The position numbers were made by a program, and so were the translations under genes. This document shows positions 2,784 to 38,340 of a DNA stretch of 52,359 nucleotides, piece after piece. The notes under the pieces were generated by a model. It saw only the letters and a program-made list of their open reading frames with translations, made no database searches and had not been told where the DNA came from. How positions within the stretch are numbered: the stretch's first letter is position 1; each line of letters starts with the position of its first letter. The stretch is from the IMG/VR virus record IMGVR_UViG_3300027365_000018, positions 1-52,359 of that record. One strand, given 5' to 3'. This stretch comes from a virus (Duplodnaviria; Caudoviricetes).

Positions 2784-3845
2784 ATGGCAGCATTCGATAG
2801 ACAAGCCTATTACGAAAACAAGGCGGCGCAGCTCAACAAGACCGGCGAAGACGGAAAGAGAAACTGGACCGTCGTGGATGTAAAAAACGCCTTCAAAGAT
2901 GCCGGCCTATCTGCCCAGGAGCACTATGCTCGGTATGGCAAGGATGAGGGCATTGCTACCACCTCGAGCCGCTCTACACCGCAGATTGTCACGCCCACCT
3001 TCGACACCAACACCTACCTGCAGAACAAGGCCAAGCAGCTTAACCAGACCTGGCAGGGCGGGCGCAACGACTGGACGGTCGATCAGGTGGCCAAGGCGTT
3101 TCAAGACGCTGGGCTCAGCGCGCAACAGCACTACGCGCGCTACGGCGCCGCCGAGGGCGTGTTGCCGTATGCCGAGGCGCAGCCCATGACGGTCAGCGCA
3201 TCGGCACCGCAATCCACCGTCTCGCCCAACCAGACCAGCCAGTACCAGCTCCAGCAGATGCTCGCCAGCGATTCCCCGCTGATGCAGCAGGCCGCCATGC
3301 GCGGCCGCCAGAATGCCGCCTCCCGCGGGTTACTGAACTCGAGCATGGCCAGCCAGGCCGCGCAGGGCGCGATGATCTCTGCCGCCACACCGTTCGCCCA
3401 GCAGGATGCCCACACCTACTTCCAGAACAGCCAGGCCAACACCGATCGCCAGCAGCAGGCCTACATGTCGAACCTGCAGTACCAGCAGCAGCGTGGCCTG
3501 AATCAGCAGCAGTTCGATCAGTCGTTGCAGCAGATGGCCCAGCAGTACGGCTACGATTCGGCGCTCTCGACCCAGTCCGCCGATCAGGCGTTGAACAACC
3601 TCAAGGCCACCTCGACGGCCAACGCCTGGGGCGTGTACGCCAATAACGTCACCGACCTGATCGGCCAGGCCTCGAACGCCATCCAGCAGATTCAGGTGAA
3701 CCCGGACATCACGCCCGAGAACAAGTCAGCGATGATCCAGCAGATCCTCGACCAGCGCGACACCGACCTGTCGTTCCAGCAGGACCTCTACGGAAGCCTG
3801 AGCAGCTATCTCGACAACACCGGCGTTTTCCCCAACCTCGCCTGA
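2784..3845 (+). CDS. Putative virion/ejection protein with two N-terminal ~55-aa repeats
   Basis: 353 aa, Q/A-rich with an ASRGLLNSSMA motif; lies after the tail module and is preceded by a GAGG RBS. Confidence 0.6.
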   Translation: MAAFDRQAYYENKAAQLNKTGEDGKRNWTVVDVKNAFKDAGLSAQEHYARYGKDEGIATTSSRSTPQIVTPTFDTNTYLQNKAKQLNQTWQGGRNDWTVDQVAKAFQDAGLSAQQHYARYGAAEGVLPYAEAQPMTVSASAPQSTVSPNQTSQYQLQQMLASDSPLMQQAAMRGRQNAASRGLLNSSMASQAAQGAMISAATPFAQQDAHTYFQNSQANTDRQQQAYMSNLQYQQQRGLNQQQFDQSLQQMAQQYGYDSALSTQSADQALNNLKATSTANAWGVYANNVTDLIGQASNAIQQIQVNPDITPENKSAMIQQILDQRDTDLSFQQDLYGSLSSYLDNTGVFPNLA

Positions 3846-3855
3846 GGAGGCAATC

Positions 3856-4191
3856 ATGGACTGGAGCAGCATTGGCACCGCCGCCAGCGATGCGGCAACC
3901 GCGACCGCCGACGCGGCCGGCGGCCTGTTCGACACCCTGGGCGACTACACCACCACCGCCTTCGACTGGATCAACGACAACCCCGAGGCCGCCAACGTGA
4001 TCGGCGGTGTGATGAGCGGCATCGGCAGCTACTACGCCCAGAAGGACCAGCAGGCGTGGAAGGAGAAGATGTATCGCCGCCAGCGAGCCGACCAGATGGC
4101 CAACCCGGGCACGATCGAGAACTACGGCTCCTATGTCGGCACCGCCAAGAAGGGGCTACTGACCAACGGCCAGATCGCGGGAGGTGAGTGA
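3856..4191 (+). CDS. Putative small ejection (pilot) protein
   Basis: GAGGAGG RBS; G/A-rich 111 aa in the ejection-gene cluster. Confidence 0.55.
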   Translation: MDWSSIGTAASDAATATADAAGGLFDTLGDYTTTAFDWINDNPEAANVIGGVMSGIGSYYAQKDQQAWKEKMYRRQRADQMANPGTIENYGSYVGTAKKGLLTNGQIAGGE

Positions 4192-35055: not shown

Positions 35056-35346
35056 TGAGCGAGCCAGCAGAGAAGCCCCGCGATGCGCGATACCGGAACC
35101 AGCCGAGGCCGCAACGATGACCTACGGCGTCCGCCCCGAGGGCATGACAGATGCTGACTGGACGCTGGAGTGCCAGGCCAGAATGGTCGTCCGGCTTATG
35201 CTGGAAGTGCCCAAGGGGCAGCGAGAGGGAATCTTCCGGGAGTGGGAAGGGCGACTACCCGGGGTGACGCGGGAACGCGTCAGAGAGGCGCTCAGGCAAC
35301 AAACGGCAACAGCAGGCAACATTTAAGGCAACGCGAGGATAACAGC

Positions 35347-35964
35347 ATGCGATACGGGTCAGCGCGCCAGATGATCTTCGAAGCGTACCGCACGGGCGGC
35401 AATAGCGTCCTCGCCGGAGCGATCCAGAAAGCCCGATGGGGCGTGGACGTCCAGCTGAGCAACCGGAACAACAACGATTGGTGCATCGTGCACGGCCTCG
35501 AGGCTGGGGCGGTGATCAGCGCGGTAGAGAGTCAGGCGCCACACCTTCGGTCGCTCGCGCTCTACCTATTCGGGCCGTTCACACGAGACGAACTGGCCGA
35601 GGACCGCGAGACGGTGCAAATCGCACTGTACCGCAAGCTGCTGTCCGATGGAGTGCGACTACCAGGGCAGGGGAAAGGGCTGCCCACAGCCGAGCAACTC
35701 GAGACCCTGCGCTATCTGTGCGCCGCGGCGATCTATCACCACGGCGAGATCACCTGGCCGTACCGTCGGCAGGGGCTGGCAACTCCGCGGACGGTGCAGG
35801 CGTGGCTGGCGGACGAGTGCGGCATCGATATTGAGGTGAGGTTCTGGACCCGCACCGACCGCGCCACTTGGGGCGCGGTCTGGGAGCGGCTGCTTAGAGT
35901 GCTGGATAGCTGGGAGGGCGAATGCCTGGCGCCGGTGGCGGCGCTGGTGCCGATGGCGGCTTAG
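35347..35964 (+). CDS. Putative late-gene antiterminator (Q position)
   Basis: 205 aa, last gene of the nin-like region, upstream of a PR'-like promoter/terminator and the lysis genes. Function is inferred from position only. Confidence 0.5.
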   Translation: MRYGSARQMIFEAYRTGGNSVLAGAIQKARWGVDVQLSNRNNNDWCIVHGLEAGAVISAVESQAPHLRSLALYLFGPFTRDELAEDRETVQIALYRKLLSDGVRLPGQGKGLPTAEQLETLRYLCAAAIYHHGEITWPYRRQGLATPRTVQAWLADECGIDIEVRFWTRTDRATWGAVWERLLRVLDSWEGECLAPVAALVPMAA

Positions 35965-36017
35965 ACGAAAGGATAATGAAATTCTTTCTTGCGTGGTGAT
36001 ACCAAGGGTGCTACCTT
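35962..36017 (+). promoter_or_regulatory. Cassette-1 sigma70 promoter with candidate operator
   Basis: Header TAGACGAAAGGATAA, AT-rich tract, TTGCGT(35989)-N17-TACCTT(36012); GGTGATACC (35995) and GGTGCTACC (36007) lie in the spacer/-10. Confidence 0.7.
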
Positions 36018-36065
36018 TAATCATGTGAGGCGAGCGAAGCCTACAATCGAAAACAGGAGCTGAAA

Positions 36066-36311
36066 ATGTATAACGACGACACAATCGAAAAGACCCTTTA
36101 TGCCGTATTTGCTGACGGTACCTACTGGGGGAGCTGGTCTGCTGATACGCCTGAAGCGGCGACGCAAATGGCGGCAGACGAGATCGGTACGAATGGAGAT
36201 ACCGAAGGCTTTATCGCCTTTGAAGTCACCCCGGATGAACGAGAGCAGGTCGATCGCTGGTGGGAAGAGGGTGCCGATGCCGCGACTATTCCCAAGTGTG
36301 TCGAGCACTAA
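36066..36311 (+). CDS. Small acidic protein, candidate anti-defence/anti-CRISPR
   Basis: 81 aa, about 19 D/E versus 4 K/R, AGGAG RBS, own promoter, next to an acr-aca2 cassette. Confidence 0.6.
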   Translation: MYNDDTIEKTLYAVFADGTYWGSWSADTPEAATQMAADEIGTNGDTEGFIAFEVTPDEREQVDRWWEEGADAATIPKCVEH

Positions 36312-36359
36312 AACCCGTCGCCCCGGTCATGTGCCGGGGCTTTGCACTGGAGATACGCA

Positions 36360-36713
36360 ATGACCGATACAGCCCGCAACAAAAAACGCCCGAGCATCTA
36401 TCTGAGCCCGCCATTGGAGCGTGTCGTCGATAATCTGCGTCGAGGGCAAAGCCTGAGCGCCCGCCTGGCCGAGATCGCCGAGCGCTATCAACTGGTGTGC
36501 AGCAAGCCGCCGGAGCTCACAGACGACGAGCGTCAGTTGCTGGGCAATACGCTGTCCGGCTCATTCATCGAACCGCTGTTGATCAAGCACCTGGATGCCG
36601 AGCTCGAAGACAGCGATGCCGGCGACACTTCGGCGCTGCGGGATCTCGCCGCTAAGATTCGCGAGATGAGCTATGCCGAGCGCGTGGCATTAATCGAGTC
36701 GATTGGGTTCTAA
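36360..36713 (+). CDS. Putative ribbon-helix-helix-like regulator
   Basis: 117 aa; N-terminal KKRPSIYLSPPLERVV..SLSARLAEIAERY strand-helix-helix pattern; GGAG RBS. Confidence 0.6.
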   Translation: MTDTARNKKRPSIYLSPPLERVVDNLRRGQSLSARLAEIAERYQLVCSKPPELTDDERQLLGNTLSGSFIEPLLIKHLDAELEDSDAGDTSALRDLAAKIREMSYAERVALIESIGF

Positions 36714-36741
36714 GCGTCTTCGCTGAAACGCGGTTGCCACC

Positions 36742-36843
36742 TAGACGAAAGGATAAGTAATTTATTCCTTGCATTGTTCGTAATCGCGAACTAAGATTCG
36801 AATTACAGGGTTCGAGATCGGCTCGACCCGGCTCTACAGAGAG
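36742..36843 (+). promoter_or_regulatory. acr-aca2 promoter with Aca2-type operator and 5'UTR hairpins
   Basis: TTGCAT(36769)-N17-TAAGAT(36792); inverted repeat GTTCG-N6-CGAAC at 36776-36791; hairpins at 36808-36829 and 36832-36843. Confidence 0.8.
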
Positions 36844-36852
36844 ATCGACATC

Positions 36853-37137
36853 ATGACTACCTACCTCAGCAACGCCATTGCCAACGCCACCTCACTCGAG
36901 CAAGTCGTCGAGTACGTCAACGAAGGCACCTGCGAAGGCATGGAGGGCATCGAGTTCACATCCGACATGCTCGCCGGTCAGTATGCCTGGCAGGCTGCGA
37001 AAGACGCGGATGATGGCGAGATCACCGAATACCATATCGAGGGTCAGCTTGAGTATCTGCGCGATGCCGGCGGCGTGTTCAACGGACAGAACGCAATTGC
37101 CCACGGCATGAAGATCGTCGCAGCCGATTCTGAATAA
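36853..37137 (+). CDS. acrIF6: Anti-CRISPR protein, AcrIF6-like
   Basis: 94 aa, acidic. AN.TSLEQVVEYVN..LAGQYAWQAAKDA..ITE..LEYL...G....NAIA resembles AcrIF6 as recalled; lies directly upstream of aca2. Confidence 0.75.
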   Translation: MTTYLSNAIANATSLEQVVEYVNEGTCEGMEGIEFTSDMLAGQYAWQAAKDADDGEITEYHIEGQLEYLRDAGGVFNGQNAIAHGMKIVAADSE

Positions 37138-37191
37138 CCCCGCGCACTATCCTGCCCCGGCCCAGCGCTGGGGCCTTCTGTTGGAGCTGAT

Positions 37192-37572
37192 ATGAACGGG
37201 AAAGAACTCCAGGCGCTGCGCAAGTTCTGCATGCTGGACGTGCGTGAAGCCGCCGAAGTTATCGGCAAGGTATCGCCGCGCAGCTGGCAATACTGGGAAG
37301 CCGGACGCAGCTCGGTGCCGGAGGACGTGGAAGACCTGATGAACGGCATCATGACCATGCGGCAGGAGCTGCTCGCGCGCCTCGAGAGTGAAGCATGGGA
37401 ACATAGCGACGACCCTCAGGATGAGCATGGAGATCGCCTACCCGTGCCTTTCTACGCAACGCATGAGGAGTACGCGAAAGCGCATCCCGAGCAGGGTGGC
37501 GTTATTGCGTGGCGCTGCCATCAGTCGGTTGTCTCAGAGCTGTATGCCAATCACCTGGTGACGCTTACCTGA
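37192..37572 (+). CDS. aca2: Anti-CRISPR-associated protein Aca2 (DUF1870 HTH)
   Basis: KELQALRK..MLDV.EAAE.IG.VS.RSWQYWE.GRS.VP.DVE..FY..EY..VI.WR..QSV matches the Aca2 family pattern. Confidence 0.9.
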   Translation: MNGKELQALRKFCMLDVREAAEVIGKVSPRSWQYWEAGRSSVPEDVEDLMNGIMTMRQELLARLESEAWEHSDDPQDEHGDRLPVPFYATHEEYAKAHPEQGGVIAWRCHQSVVSELYANHLVTLT

Positions 37573-37576
37573 CTGC

Positions 37577-37605
37577 TTGCCACCTGCATCATTTTCGCTT
37601 ACGCT
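37577..37605 (+). promoter_or_regulatory. PR'-like late promoter
   Basis: TTGCCA-N17-TACGCT followed by a terminator and then the lysis genes. Confidence 0.55.
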
Positions 37606-37624
37606 GCCAACATGATCGGATACT

Positions 37625-37651
37625 ACGCCCTGGCATTTGCCGGGGCGTTTT
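37625..37651 (+). terminator. tR'-like intrinsic terminator
   Basis: ACGCCCTGGC-ATTT-GCCGGGGCGT-TTT. Confidence 0.7.
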
Positions 37652-37737
37652 CGTTTCCGCTCCACGCATCCCAAGGCCCTGCCATCCCCTGGCGGGACCT
37701 TCTTGTTTCTCCCACGCCGTGAGGCGCCGGAGGCCTT

Positions 37738-38340
37738 ATGCCCCGCATCACCCCCGAGAAGTCCGGTAGCCGCAACCTGTGCGCCTTCCTCGACATGATC
37801 GCCTATGCCGAGATCGGCGCGCGCATGCTTAACGACAGCGACGACGGCTACAACGTCCTGGTTGGCTCGCTGCCCGGCAAGATGCAGCTGTTCGACAGCT
37901 ATTCCGATCATCCGCGCAAGGTGATTCAGGTCAGCGCCAACCTGCGCTCGTCTGCTGCCGGTCGCTACCAGATCCTCAGTCGCTTCTGGGACCACTACAA
38001 ACGGCAGCTCGACCTGCCCGATTTCGGGCCGGTGAGCCAGGACCGCTACGCCATCCAGCAGATCCGCGAGCAGCGTGCTCTGGATGACGTGCACGCCGGA
38101 CGCTTCGACCGGGCCGTGGGCAAGGTGGCCAACATCTGGGCGAGCATGCCCGGCGCCGGCTATGGGCAGCACGAGCGCAAGCTCGACGAGCTTCGCCAGG
38201 CCTATATCGATGCCGGTGGCCGATTCGAGGGCGATACCGAGGAGCCGGCGCAAGACACAGAGCGCCCCGGCCAGCTGGATCGCATTGAAGCCAAGGTGGA
38301 TCAGCTGATTGCCCTGCAGCTGCGTGACGGAGGTGCCTGA
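37738..38340 (+). CDS. Endolysin, lambda R-type lytic transglycosylase
   Basis: AFLDMIAYAE..DDGYNVLVG..F.SYSDHPR..SSAAGRYQ.L...W..LPDF.P.SQD..IWAS.PGAGYGQHE. Confidence 0.92.
   Translation: MPRITPEKSGSRNLCAFLDMIAYAEIGARMLNDSDDGYNVLVGSLPGKMQLFDSYSDHPRKVIQVSANLRSSAAGRYQILSRFWDHYKRQLDLPDFGPVSQDRYAIQQIREQRALDDVHAGRFDRAVGKVANIWASMPGAGYGQHERKLDELRQAYIDAGGRFEGDTEEPAQDTERPGQLDRIEAKVDQLIALQLRDGGA

What the first reader, a model, noticed from the sequence alone, without database searches (positions are those of the whole stretch)
35962..36713. Candidate new anti-defence protein with a non-HTH (RHH-like) Aca-type regulator
This cassette is an architectural twin of the adjacent acrIF6-aca2 unit. Both have the same 15-bp header, a sigma70 promoter with operator-like repeats between -35 and -10 (here GGTGATACC and GGTGCTACC, 12 bp apart), a small very acidic gene (here 81 aa, about 19 D/E versus 4 K/R, 4 Trp), an attenuating hairpin (36320-36343) and then a DNA-binding gene. 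The 117-aa regulator looks ribbon-helix-helix-like rather than HTH. I recognise neither protein. Guilt by association makes the 81-aa protein a strong Acr or DNA-mimic candidate and its partner a possible new Aca marker for mining further inhibitors.
Basis: partly seen in the sequence, partly recalled or inferred. Interest (0 to 1): 0.8.

Follow-up and report, generated by a model that had tools for sequence, protein, structure and literature searches.

The report
Phage anti-CRISPR operon with AcrIE10-type repressor
A phage of a salt-loving bacterium carries a small self-switching operon whose second gene belongs to the recently described AcrIE10 family of anti-CRISPR regulators and whose first gene is a very acidic, uncharacterised protein that is a reasonable but untested candidate for a new inhibitor of bacterial immunity.

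Summary
The 15-nt header, two GGTNNNACC sites, the 81-aa acidic gene, a hairpin and the 117-aa gene lie where stated.

The 117-aa protein is not unknown. It is a full-length relative of AcrIE10 by sequence (PDB 9m7t, E 2.3e-9) and by fold (TM 0.73-0.78). AcrIE10 is a bifunctional anti-CRISPR and ribbon-helix-helix (RHH) autorepressor (NAR 2024; Nat Commun, Aug 2026).

Comparative evidence supports autoregulation:
- The operator changes with the RHH type, not with the upstream gene.
- In 33 loci the upstream genes fall into 17 unrelated clusters. Nine are strongly acidic and one is an AcrIE9 homologue. This is an Acr-Aca pattern, not a toxin-antitoxin pair.
- Five of 7 mapped Cas7-contact residues, including the essential glutamate, are retained.

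The 81-aa protein has 35 distant relatives among 1.84 billion proteins and no known fold or family. One relative again sits directly before an AcrIE10-like gene. Another is fused to an AcrIC5 domain. It is a fair but untested anti-defence candidate.

The header marks the left edge of an insertion hot spot between a Q-like gene and the late promoter. This scan has already noted AcrIE10-like cassettes on other DNA.

The parts
35347..35964 (+). 205-aa Q-like gene that forms the left border of the insertion hot spot. Its function is not shown.
   Evidence: phrog_3373, function unknown, E 5.9e-17. Thirteen related viral loci were found. In them this gene is followed either directly by the late-promoter/terminator unit or by other small cassettes.
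35962..35976 (+). Header copy 1 (TAGACGAAAGGATAA). It begins with the stop codon of the Q-like gene and marks the left junction of the hot spot.
   Evidence: Similar junctions (TTAGACTAAAGG) follow the Q-like gene in L142, L146 and L150.
35989..36017 (+). Promoter core. The -35 is TTGCGT (35989-35994) and the probable -10 is TACCTT (36012-36017), with a 17-nt spacer.
   Evidence: Read from the sequence. Relatives share the register TTGCAA-N17-TACCTT. The consensus scan does not call it.
35995..36015 (+). Operator of two GGTNNNACC sub-sites (GGTGATACC and GGTGCTACC) separated by 3 bp. Predicted binding site for two RHH dimers.
   Evidence: Unique in the window, 0 of 100 shuffles. The same two-sub-site design is present in all 9 relatives with this RHH type whose promoter I read.
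36066..36311 (+). 81-aa acidic cargo gene, the candidate anti-defence protein.
36320..36340 (+). GC-rich stem-loop (8 bp, 5-nt loop, then TTT) between cargo and regulator. Possibly a partial terminator.
   Evidence: A stem-loop occupies this position in all 19 intergenic stretches folded. The energy is not above shuffles.
36360..36713 (+). 117-aa AcrIE10-family protein with an N-terminal RHH (about residues 9-46) and a C-terminal helical domain.
   Evidence: PDB E 2.3e-9. Foldseek TM 0.73-0.78 to 9m7t, 9m71 and 8ji9. phrog_14350 E 2.5e-20. 49 proteins at E <= 0.001, the window's own included.
36742..36756 (+). Header copy 2, at the start of the neighbouring acrIF6-like/aca2 unit.
36853..37572 (+). 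Neighbouring unit, given for context only: 94-aa AcrIF6-like gene, hairpin at 37154-37174, and 126-aa Aca2 gene.
37580..37696 (+). Right border of the hot spot: a conserved late-promoter-like stretch and two terminator-like hairpins just before the endolysin gene (37738-38340).
   Evidence: Terminator-like sites at 37625-37648 and 37678-37696. Alignment with L142-L144 at 78% mean identity. Endolysin phrog_90 E 9.4e-54.

Best explanation
This is a self-repressed anti-defence operon inserted as a moron between the Q-like gene and the late promoter of a temperate phage. The nearest homologues are Halomonadaceae proteins, so a host of that family is likely.

Proposed mechanism:
1. A host-type promoter drives the 81-aa cargo gene and then the 117-aa gene.
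2. The 117-aa protein is an AcrIE10-family Acr-Aca. Its N-terminal ribbon-helix-helix dimerises. Two dimers would sit on the two GGTNNNACC sub-sites, which fill the promoter spacer and overlap the -10. This would shut the operon off once enough protein has been made (inferred by homology and comparative data).
3. Its C-terminal helical domain probably still binds free type I-E Cas7, as in Klebsiella. That binding could both inhibit Cascade assembly and relieve repression (inferred from retained contact residues).
4. The 81-aa protein is interchangeable cargo, most likely an inhibitor of a host defence system. Its target is unknown; CRISPR-Cas is the first guess.
5. The stem-loop between the genes may lower read-through into the repressor gene (inferred).

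Shown here: homology, fold, operator co-variation, cargo variability and the hot-spot structure.
Not shown here: DNA binding, repression, Cas7 binding, or any inhibition by the 81-aa protein.
For: Regulator identity:
- phmmer gives E 2.3e-9 to AcrIE10 over residues 9-114 of 117.
- The AlphaFold model has pLDDT 89.7. In Foldseek it matches only AcrIE10 entries, at TM 0.73-0.78 over 112-113 columns. No other listed match has TM by query above 0.32.
- The published function (RHH autorepressor plus Cas7 binder) was read in named sections of PMC13530269 and PMC11317147.

Operator co-varies with RHH type, not with cargo:
- K(K/R)RPSIYL type, 10 loci read: the window, six with GGTAGCACC-N3-GGTGCTACC (L001, L004-L008), two with GGTACTACC-N3-GGTAGTACC (L002, L009) and L155 with GGTCCTACC-N3-GGTAGTACC. 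The -35 and -10 are in the same register in all.
- RNPSFTPSP type, which reads the same as Klebsiella AcrIE10: 7 of 7 loci carry GTAYGACA-N2-TGTMATAC. The 2-bp spacer matches the one the paper reports as required.
- KRTIYMSEPL type (low-GC): 10 of 10 loci carry TACGTATA palindromes around TTGAC...TATAAT.

Cargo variability:
- 35 upstream proteins from 33 loci fall into 17 blastp clusters, 9 with net charge of -9 or more negative.
- One cluster (L021) is an AcrIE9 homologue (9wdl, E 3.2e-9).
- The promoter and the start of the 5'UTR stay conserved while the cargo changes.

Cas7-contact residues:
- The published contacts are Q56, N63, S65, E68, Y74, E78, D83 and R116, with E78 essential.
- Through the alignment the first seven map to Q59, S66, S68, E71, H77, E81 and D86. 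Five of these 7 are identical.
- E81 is invariant in all 49 homologues.

81-aa protein:
- It is a real gene; differences from its L155 relative fall 25/15/44 by codon position.
- Its one relative in 342 family genomes again lies directly upstream of an AcrIE10-like gene. There it is the third of three small acidic genes behind the same operator type.
- In P0068 the family's N-terminal domain is fused to an AcrIC5 domain (PF22147, 42.6 bits against a cut-off of 27, residues 51-97).

Likely target is present in the host family: a type I-E Cas7 marker was found in 81 of 342 genomes of the family of G001.

The structure is not an assembly artefact. Contigs of runs X2/X3 and X4, from other studies than X1, cover both junctions or cassette parts with 0-1 differences.
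Against: - No experiment was done and no RNA data are available.
- The promoter is not called by the consensus scan.
- The window's left sub-site (GGTGATACC) is not the inverted copy seen in relatives, so binding may be weaker.
- The hairpin folds no better than shuffles.
- The 81-aa protein shows no similarity to any known Acr in Pfam, PHROGs or NCBIfam. It shows none by PDB sequence or profile either.
- No fold search gave a significant match for it.
- The AcrIC5 link is a single fusion in one metagenomic protein whose context I could not fetch.
- Three other relatives of the 81-aa protein (L031-L033) are not next to an AcrIE10-like gene.
- Of the 5 genomes that carry AcrIE10-like genes, only 1 has the I-E marker, 1 the I-C marker and none the I-F marker. 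The one holding the 81-aa relative (G226) has none of the three.
- Seven of the 17 cargo clusters are not markedly acidic and have no known family, and the AcrIE9-like cluster (L021) is not acidic either.
- Cargo ORFs were chosen by a heuristic with three manual corrections.
Confidence: 0.6

Rival explanations
1. The operon is as described, but the 81-aa protein is a moron with a role unrelated to host defence. It could be a lysogenic-conversion factor, a superinfection-exclusion factor, a modulator of the phage's own regulation, or a helper of the AcrIE10-like protein.
For: No similarity to any known anti-defence protein or fold was found. The site between the Q-like gene and the lysis genes holds varied cargo in related phages. 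Three relatives of the 81-aa protein lie in other phage contexts without an Aca-like neighbour.
Against: Two independent members sit directly upstream of AcrIE10-type repressors (window; L155). The same slot holds an AcrIE9 homologue in L021 and AcrIE9.2 in Klebsiella. One relative is fused to AcrIC5. Strong acidity and small size are typical of Acrs, although not specific to them.
Confidence: 0.25
2. The 81-aa protein is an anti-defence protein but not an anti-CRISPR. It could be, for example, a DNA mimic acting against restriction-modification or another DNA-binding defence.
For: It has 19 D/E against 4 K/R. A preprint reports Aca-controlled operons that hold non-CRISPR anti-defence or RM genes (10.64898/2026.07.27.740549, passages read). 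The genome with the closest in-context relative has no I-E, I-F or I-C marker.
Against: Nothing here speaks for a specific target. The model is a small beta-beta-alpha-beta-alpha fold without likeness to known DNA mimics in the fold searches.
Confidence: 0.12
3. The pair is a toxin-antitoxin or addiction module in which the RHH protein is the antitoxin.
For: RHH proteins are common antitoxins and autorepressors (general knowledge). The unit is a two-gene autoregulated operon on a mobile element.
Against: The partners are not fixed: 17 clusters in 33 loci. None of 18 representative partners hits a toxin family in Pfam or NCBIfam. The RHH gene comes second, and its C-terminal domain is that of a solved Cas7-binding Acr.
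Confidence: 0.03

Closest known systems
AcrIE10 and the acrIE9.2-acrIE10 operon of Klebsiella pneumoniae plasmids (PDB 8ji9, 9m71, 9m7t; PMC11317147, PMC13530269)
   Same: - Full-length homology (E 2.3e-9) and the same fold (TM 0.73-0.78).
- An N-terminal RHH followed by a helical domain.
- The gene lies second in a two-gene operon behind a small gene.
- A two-part repeat fills and overlaps the promoter.
- Five of 7 mapped Cas7-contact residues are kept, including the essential glutamate.
   Different: - About 30% identity only.
- The DNA-reading strand is K-R-P-S-I-Y instead of R-N-P-S-F-T.
- The operator is 9-bp GGTNNNACC sub-sites with a 3-bp spacer, instead of an inverted repeat with a 2-bp spacer.
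- The upstream gene is not acrIE9.2. Across phages it is highly variable, whereas the paper describes acrIE9.2-acrIE10 as a functional unit.
- The element is a phage rather than a plasmid, and the host is halophilic rather than enterobacterial.
Aca14, an RHH anti-CRISPR-associated repressor (Feussner et al., bioRxiv 10.64898/2026.07.27.740549; abstract and passages read)
   Same: An RHH protein in the Aca position. It represses through an inverted repeat overlapping the -10 and is associated with varied acr or anti-defence genes.
   Different: Aca14 was found from a different seed protein. No Acr domain is described for Aca14 in the passages I read. AcrIE10 is not mentioned in that text (0 occurrences).
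Aca2-controlled acr operons (the neighbouring acrIF6-like/aca2 unit at 36742-37572)
   Same: The same layout: header, promoter with the operator in the spacer, a small acidic gene, a GC hairpin, then the regulator gene. Both lie in tandem in the same hot spot.
   Different: The Aca2 regulator is an HTH protein (PF08965) with a different operator (TTCG-N6-CGAA, found once in the window). No cross-operator sites were seen in either promoter.
AcrIC5 (PF22147), a small acidic type I-C inhibitor
   Same: It is small and very acidic. The N-terminal domain of the 81-aa family is fused to an AcrIC5 domain in one protein (P0068).
   Different: The 81-aa protein itself has no AcrIC5 match (Pfam up to E 1). 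Its C-terminal part (W-W-x-x-G-A-D-A-A...P-x-C) is a different module.
Bifunctional HTH Acr-Aca proteins (AcrIIA1, AcrIF24 and others, as listed in the discussion of PMC13530269)
   Same: One polypeptide joins an inhibitor domain to a DNA-binding autorepressor domain.
   Different: Those use HTH domains. This one uses RHH.

Membership tests
AcrIE10 family (RHH Acr-Aca) | Sequence homology over the whole protein | tested here: met
   phmmer E 2.3e-9, residues 9-114 of 117 against 7-113 of 116. Bridging homologues carry the AcrIE10-type N-terminus joined to a window-type C-terminus (P0042-P0048).
AcrIE10 family (RHH Acr-Aca) | Fold: N-terminal RHH plus C-terminal helical bundle | tested here: met
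   Foldseek matches 9m7t_A, 9m71_A and 8ji9 at TM 0.73-0.78, probability 1.00. No other listed match has TM by query above 0.32. In the monomer model, residues 10-16 are extended but not called as a strand.
AcrIE10 family (RHH Acr-Aca) | Repeat operator overlapping the -35/-10 of its own operon promoter | tested here: met
   Two GGTNNNACC sites lie at 35995-36015 between TTGCGT and TACCTT. They are unique in the window, conserved, and co-vary with RHH type in relatives.
AcrIE10 family (RHH Acr-Aca) | Binds that operator and represses transcription | not testable with these tools
   Needs EMSA and a reporter assay. Shown only for the Klebsiella protein.
AcrIE10 family (RHH Acr-Aca) | Binds type I-E Cas7 through C-terminal residues, with E78 essential | tested here: inconclusive
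   Seven of the 8 published contacts could be mapped. Five are identical (Q59, S68, E71, E81, D86) and two are conservative (S66, H77). E81 is invariant in 49 homologues. Binding itself was not tested.
AcrIE10 family (RHH Acr-Aca) | Co-transcribed with an upstream acr gene | not testable with these tools
   Gene order and the 48-nt gap fit this. No RNA run holds the stretch.
Aca in the operational sense (conserved regulator next to variable acr genes) | Homologues are paired with diverse small genes that include known acr genes | tested here: met
   17 partner clusters in 33 loci. One is an AcrIE9 homologue. acrIE9.2 is the published partner. Only 6 of the 17 clusters were compared with solved structures.
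Anti-CRISPR protein (the 81-aa gene) | Inhibits a CRISPR-Cas system | not testable with these tools
Anti-CRISPR protein (the 81-aa gene) | Similarity to a known Acr family | tested here: inconclusive
   No family in Pfam, PHROGs or NCBIfam. No Acr found by PDB sequence or profile. In the fold searches AcrIE2 scored Z 3.4 and AcrIC9 Z 2.3, within noise. One relative carries a fused AcrIC5 domain.
Type II toxin-antitoxin pair with RHH antitoxin | A fixed toxin partner of a recognisable toxin family | tested here: not met
   17 unrelated partner clusters. None of 18 representatives matches a toxin family.

The most novel reading that the evidence does not exclude
Two linked claims. First, the 81-aa protein would found a new anti-defence family. 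Its roughly 45-residue N-terminal module (Y-A-I-F-A-N-G-T-Y-W-G...G-T-D-G-N-T-D-G-L-T-A) would be a reusable inhibitor or adaptor domain that evolution has joined to different C-terminal parts, an AcrIC5 domain among them. Second, AcrIE10-type RHH proteins would be a broad marker rather than a fixed partner of acrIE9.2. Across phages of Gammaproteobacteria and low-GC bacteria they would flag at least 16 further uncharacterised cargo families. These families would be swapped between a fixed promoter-operator-leader and a fixed hairpin-repressor end.
Probability: 0.35. Interest if true: 0.65.

Novelty: new member of a known kind. Interest (0 to 1): 0.45.

Why it matters
Acr-Aca operons are the main route to finding new inhibitors of bacterial immunity. 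RHH-type regulators entered the literature only in 2026.

This locus shows three things about the AcrIE10 family:
- It is not tied to acrIE9.2 or to enterobacterial plasmids.
- It works as a swappable regulator module in phages of distant hosts.
- Its operators change together with the DNA-reading strand.

It also gives a concrete list of untested cargo families. These include the 81-aa family, a ParB-N-like acidic family and several others. They could be screened against type I-E, I-F and I-C CRISPR-Cas and other defences.

The matched pairs of RHH strand and operator are a natural data set for studying RHH specificity.

Tried and rejected
Header as a portable signal: the exact 15-mer has at least 106 hits in viral contigs. 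Flanks of the 105 copies I could score match the window at no more than 20 of 50 positions. These are chance hits. I reject the header as a general acr-cassette tag and read it as the local junction of the hot spot.

Fold of the 81-aa protein:
- Foldseek against PDB: 0 of 293 listed matches at E <= 0.001; best E 0.82.
- VIA-align wide: best Z 5.7 (PaaB 4iit_B, rmsd 2.5, 53 aligned), below the stated noise level.
- BFVD: best E 0.016, to an unnamed protein.
- ESM Atlas: best score 0.85, no family.

Word-based protein search for the 81-aa protein found only itself.

Wider context for the 81-aa family:
- The viral-contig scan gave 3 loci and the metagenome-contig scan gave 2. None of those I read (L031, L033) had an AcrIE10-like neighbour. 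L032, L034 and L035 were not read.
The contexts of P0051 (Modicisalibacter) and of the AcrIC5 fusion P0068 therefore remain unknown.

Phage collection: megablast of 35300-37700 found no match.

RNA evidence: no RNA holder was listed.

A joint in run X1 that skips 35610-37709 has only 28 letters on one side at 85% likeness. I do not use it.

Cross-regulation: neither operator type occurs a second time in the window.

Complex prediction was not used. I claim no specific binding pair, and the AcrIE10-Cas7 pair would pass merely by likeness to 8ji9.

Four long repeat proteins among the 35 HMMER hits (P0071, P0079, P0084, P0085; 549-819 aa) were left out of alignment A2 as probable composition matches.

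They may already list Halomonadaceae homologues or gene neighbourhoods that overlap my tabulation. I searched papers for 'AcrIE10', 'AcrIC5' and 'Aca14' with 'ribbon-helix-helix'. I made no search that would show the 81-aa family is absent from print.
Full report
WHAT IS THERE.
The window is a whole 52,359-base virus record. The following features lie in order on the + strand between 35962 and 36713:
- TAGACGAAAGGATAA at 35962-35976. It begins with the stop codon of a 205-aa gene (35347-35964).
- TTGCGT at 35989-35994.
- GGTGATACC at 35995-36003, then AAG, then GGTGCTACC at 36007-36015.
- TACCTT at 36012-36017, overlapping TTTAAT at 36016-36021.
- AGGAG, followed by an 81-aa ORF (36066-36311).
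- A stem-loop at 36320-36340.
- GGAG, followed by a 117-aa ORF (36360-36713).

Checks on the individual features:
- The 15-mer recurs once, at 36742-36756, at the head of the next unit. None of 100 shuffles gave a match. The likeness runs over 47 nt at 74%.
- The composite GGTNNNACC-N3-GGTNNNACC is unique in the window, with 0 of 100 shuffles.
- The strict promoter scan calls nothing here.
- TTGCGT to TTTAAT is 21 nt. TTGCGT to TACCTT is 17 nt, and this is the register shared by relatives.

THE NEIGHBOURING UNIT.
The 94-aa protein matches AcrF6 (6vqx, E 2.7e-4, residues 10-91). The 126-aa protein matches Aca2/YdiL (PF08965, E 7.3e-22). The 'twin' comparison is therefore fair.

THE 117-aa PROTEIN IS AN AcrIE10 RELATIVE.
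- Pfam finds nothing. PHROGs gives phrog_14350, of unknown function (E 2.5e-20).
- Against PDB sequences it matches AcrIE10 (9m7t, 9uer, 9m71, 8ji9) at E 2.3e-9 to 3.2e-9 over residues 9-114.
- An AlphaFold2 model built on 49 sequences has pLDDT 89.7. In Foldseek it matches only the AcrIE10 entries, at TM 0.73-0.78 over 112-113 columns. No other listed match has TM by query above 0.32.

What the literature says about AcrIE10:
- It was described in 2024 as a type I-E* inhibitor that binds free Cas7 (PMC11317147; outline and sections 27, 29, 30 read).
- In August 2026 it was described as a bifunctional Acr-Aca (PMC13530269; outline and sections 6, 7, 13 read).
- According to those sections, its N-terminal ribbon-helix-helix binds an inverted repeat overlapping the -35 and -10 of the acrIE9.2-acrIE10 promoter.
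- It does so as a dimer of dimers that needs a 2-bp spacer.
- R7, N8 and S10 read the bases. Cas7 binding relieves repression.

Mapping onto the window protein, through the alignment:
- The base-reading residues correspond to K9, R10 and S12. The strand is kept but its reading residues differ.
- The published Cas7 contacts Q56, N63, S65, E68, Y74, E78 and D83 correspond to Q59, S66, S68, E71, H77, E81 and D86.
- Five are identical and two conservative. R116 could not be mapped.
- E81, the counterpart of the essential E78, is invariant in all 49 homologues.

COMPARATIVE TEST OF THE REGULATOR ROLE.

Homologues and loci collected:
- 49 homologues at E <= 0.001 among 73 candidates, the window's own protein included. 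The named ones are from Halomonas, Billgrantia, Salinicola and Microbulbifer.
- 3 loci in genome contigs, out of 16 pattern matches.
- 27 loci in viral contigs, out of 68 pattern matches.
- 5 of 342 genomes of the family of G001 carry the gene. This added L155/L157 and L158.
- Some loci are the same element sampled twice (L001/L006, L003/L012, L156/L001, L159/L002, L160/L003).

The N-terminal strand comes in types, and the promoter repeats change with the type, not with the upstream gene:
- K(K/R)RPSIYL type: GGTAGCACC-N3-GGTGCTACC in L001 and L004-L008.
- K(K/R)RPSIYL type, continued: GGTACTACC-N3-GGTAGTACC in L002 and L009, and GGTCCTACC-N3-GGTAGTACC in L155.
- The window has GGTGATACC-N3-GGTGCTACC. 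All of these sit between TTGC(A/G)(A/T) and TACCTT. L002, L009 and L155 have K-A-K-R-P-S-I-Y-L.
- RNPSFTPSP type, as in Klebsiella AcrIE10: 7 of 7 loci (L003, L012, L014, L016, L021, L026, L028) carry GTAYGACA-N2-TGTMATAC. The 2-bp spacer fits the paper.
- KRTIYMSEPL type, in low-GC contigs: 10 of 10 loci carry TACGTATA palindromes around a canonical TTGAC...TATAAT.
- No such repeat was seen in the 130 nt I read upstream of the presumed cargo in L010/L011, L024 and L030. L158 was not read.

Two further points:
- The window's left sub-site is not the inverted copy of the right one, as it is in most relatives. It looks like a direct copy with one change. Each sub-site has palindromic ends (GGT...ACC), so an RHH dimer could still bind, but strength may differ (inference).
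- The start of the 5'UTR (catgtgaggcgaacgaagcc...) is conserved in loci with four different cargo genes.

CARGO VARIABILITY.
I took the ORF ending just before each AcrIE10-like gene. The pick was heuristic, with manual corrections for L001/L006, L002 and L030. I added three genes from L155.
- The 35 proteins from 33 loci fall into 17 single-linkage blastp clusters at E < 1e-4.
- Nine clusters have a net charge of -9 or more negative.
- The L021 cargo is an AcrIE9 homologue (9wdl, E 3.2e-9).
- Five other clusters compared with PDB sequences gave nothing.
- Of 18 representatives, none hit Pfam at E <= 0.001; the only two Pfam hits were at E 0.0037 and 0.0067. None hit NCBIfam.
- PHROGs gave only ParB-like or methyltransferase N-domain hits for the 118-120-aa acidic family, and one family of unknown function.

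It also differs from the statement in PMC13530269 that acrIE9.2 and acrIE10 form a functional unit. That statement rests on enterobacterial data whose supplements I could not see.

THE 81-aa PROTEIN.

Sequence relatives:
- A word-based search finds only itself.
- A full HMMER search of 1.84 billion representatives finds 35 proteins at E <= 0.001, 3 of them at E <= 1e-10.
- I dropped four long repeat proteins and aligned the remaining 31 with the query.
- The first 45 or so residues are the conserved part. The tail (E-V-T-x-x-E...W-W-x-x-G-A-D-A-A-x-x-P-x-C) is shared by about a dozen.
- Others end after the N-domain or carry different tails.
- One of the 32 rows has a Pfam family. P0068 (99 aa) joins the N-domain to an AcrIC5 domain (PF22147, E 6.6e-11, residues 51-97).
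- A profile of the family does not find any Acr in the PDB.

Model and fold:
- The model (pLDDT 84.3) is beta-beta-alpha-beta-alpha.
- No fold search gives a match above noise, and the ESM Atlas adds nothing.

Context of relatives:
- In 342 genomes of the family of G001 there is one relative, in G226 (E 4.2e-31).
- There, behind an operator of the same type, lie three genes: a 128-aa acidic gene of the L005 cargo family, a 62-aa acidic gene, and the 81-aa relative (56% identity).
- Each of the three is followed by a GC stem-loop. An AcrIE10-like gene then follows.
- Another orthologue (P0051, 62% identity) is from Modicisalibacter.
- Three more distant relatives in viral contigs lie among small phage genes without such a regulator.

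Coding signature: between the window and G226 the differences fall 25/15/44 by codon position for the 81-aa gene and 25/11/46 for the 117-aa gene. Both are coding genes under constraint.

THE HAIRPIN.
- A stem-loop lies between cargo and regulator in all 19 stretches folded: 2 in the window and 17 in other loci.
- The stems are nearly the same in the high-GC loci (GCCCCGGC...GCCGGGGC). They have different sequences but the same form in distant loci. L026 has a plain terminator shape.
- Taken singly, the window's hairpins fold no better than shuffles: z -0.66 and +0.06.
- The 36320 hairpin has only TTT after it and is not called by the terminator scan.
- Such stems are rare in the window: 3 matches against 0.23 expected.
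- Positional conservation therefore suggests a role, either as a partial terminator setting the cargo-to-repressor ratio or as a cassette boundary. This is inference.

THE HEADER AND THE SITE.
Thirteen viral loci encode relatives of the 205-aa gene.
- In L143, L144 and L147 that gene is followed directly by a promoter-like stretch and two terminator-like hairpins just before the endolysin.
- The same unit follows aca2 in the window (37580-37696).
- In L142, L146 and L150 another cassette sits in between. It has an 85-aa acidic gene, a 96-aa gene and a 66-aa HTH gene. It begins with TTAGACTAAAGG and has a palindrome in the promoter spacer.

The header is thus the left junction of an insertion hot spot. 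Its second copy between the two units suggests that two cassettes from the same site in different phages were joined in tandem (inference). As a free 15-mer it has only chance hits elsewhere.

INDEPENDENT SIGHTINGS.
- Contigs of runs X2/X3 (which may be one data set filed twice) and X4, from studies other than that of the probable source X1, cover several parts with 0-1 differences.
- The parts covered are 35823-36032, 36082-36501, 36722-36901 and further pieces. The tandem arrangement is therefore not an assembly artefact.
- X1 also holds a short contig at about 80-fold higher depth with an L005-type promoter and operator.
- No RNA run is listed.

HOST DEFENCES.
- A type I-E Cas7 marker is found in 81 of 342 genomes of the family of G001, 80 of them over the cut-off.
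- Among the five genomes with AcrIE10-like genes it is present in one (G003). A type I-C marker is in one (G065). A type I-F marker is in none.
- This neither supports nor excludes a target for the 81-aa protein.

WHAT IS KNOWN AND WHAT IS NEW.
- RHH Acas are now in print twice: AcrIE10 (PMC13530269) and Aca14. For the Aca14 preprint (bioRxiv 10.64898/2026.07.27.740549) I read the abstract and passages. AcrIE10 is not mentioned in its main text.
- This scan has also noted AcrIE10-like last genes in cassettes on other DNA. One of those notes led me to the Aca14 preprint.
- The regulator is therefore a new member of a known kind.
- Three things add to the published picture. The family has wide cargo variability outside enterobacterial plasmids. 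RHH strands and operators change as matched pairs. There is an untested 81-aa family with a modular N-domain.

VERDICT.
- AcrIE10-type autorepressor: about 0.9.
- It retains Cas7 binding: about 0.6.
- The 81-aa protein is an anti-defence protein of some kind: about 0.55-0.6.
- The 81-aa protein is specifically an anti-CRISPR: about 0.4.
- Interest: 0.45.

Noticed in passing
L142 4612-5520 (also L146, L150): At the same site after the Q-like gene, related phages carry a different three-gene cassette: an 85-aa acidic protein, a 96-aa protein and a 66-aa HTH protein. It sits behind a promoter whose spacer holds the palindrome GGGAAATAATTTCCC. It looks like another acr-aca-type unit. No family was found for the first two proteins, and the third has only a weak HigA-like HTH hit.
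   Followed up: partly
L003/L012 versus L004; proteins P0042-P0048: Domain shuffling within the family. These proteins have a C-terminal domain close to the window's but carry the Klebsiella-type RNPSFTPSP strand, and their promoters carry the matching GTATGACA-type repeat. The same 81-aa acidic cargo (MQNITVRH..., unrelated to the window's) occurs behind either RHH type.
   Followed up: partly
L155 1443-2085 (minus strand): In the three-cargo operon of G226, every cargo gene is followed by its own GC-rich stem-loop. One has z -3.0 against shuffles. The stem-loops might mark cassette boundaries.
   Followed up: partly
L015, L017-L020, L022, L025 (about 3576-3956): A 118-120-aa very acidic protein with a ParB-N-like motif (GxPILYTNxGLVTGSHRLAAL) is the cargo in 7 low-GC loci. 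PHROGs links it only to ParB-like or methyltransferase N-domains.
   Followed up: partly
L003, L007, L008, L012, L026, L028, L158, directly after the AcrIE10-like gene: The gene just downstream is often a protein with a conserved C-L-E-C-G-(R/K)-W-(F/Y) ... H-L-x-R-(T/I)-H motif, which I recall as MucR/Ros-like (recalled, not tested). In the low-GC loci the downstream gene is a G-Y-W-T-V-I ... C-x-C-x-C-G protein instead.
   Followed up: no
window 36001-36045, run X1: The probable source sample holds a 178-nt contig at word depth 3902, against about 48 for the phage. Its flanks read like the L005-type promoter and operator. A much more abundant element with the same operator type seems to share the sample.
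   Followed up: no
L031 2526-3210 and L033 2669-3240: Distant relatives of the 81-aa protein lie in runs of small genes. Each gene there is preceded by a similar short leader, which in one frame reads H-T-T-H-R-R-H-T-M. The runs lie next to a cytosine-methyltransferase-like gene.
   Followed up: no
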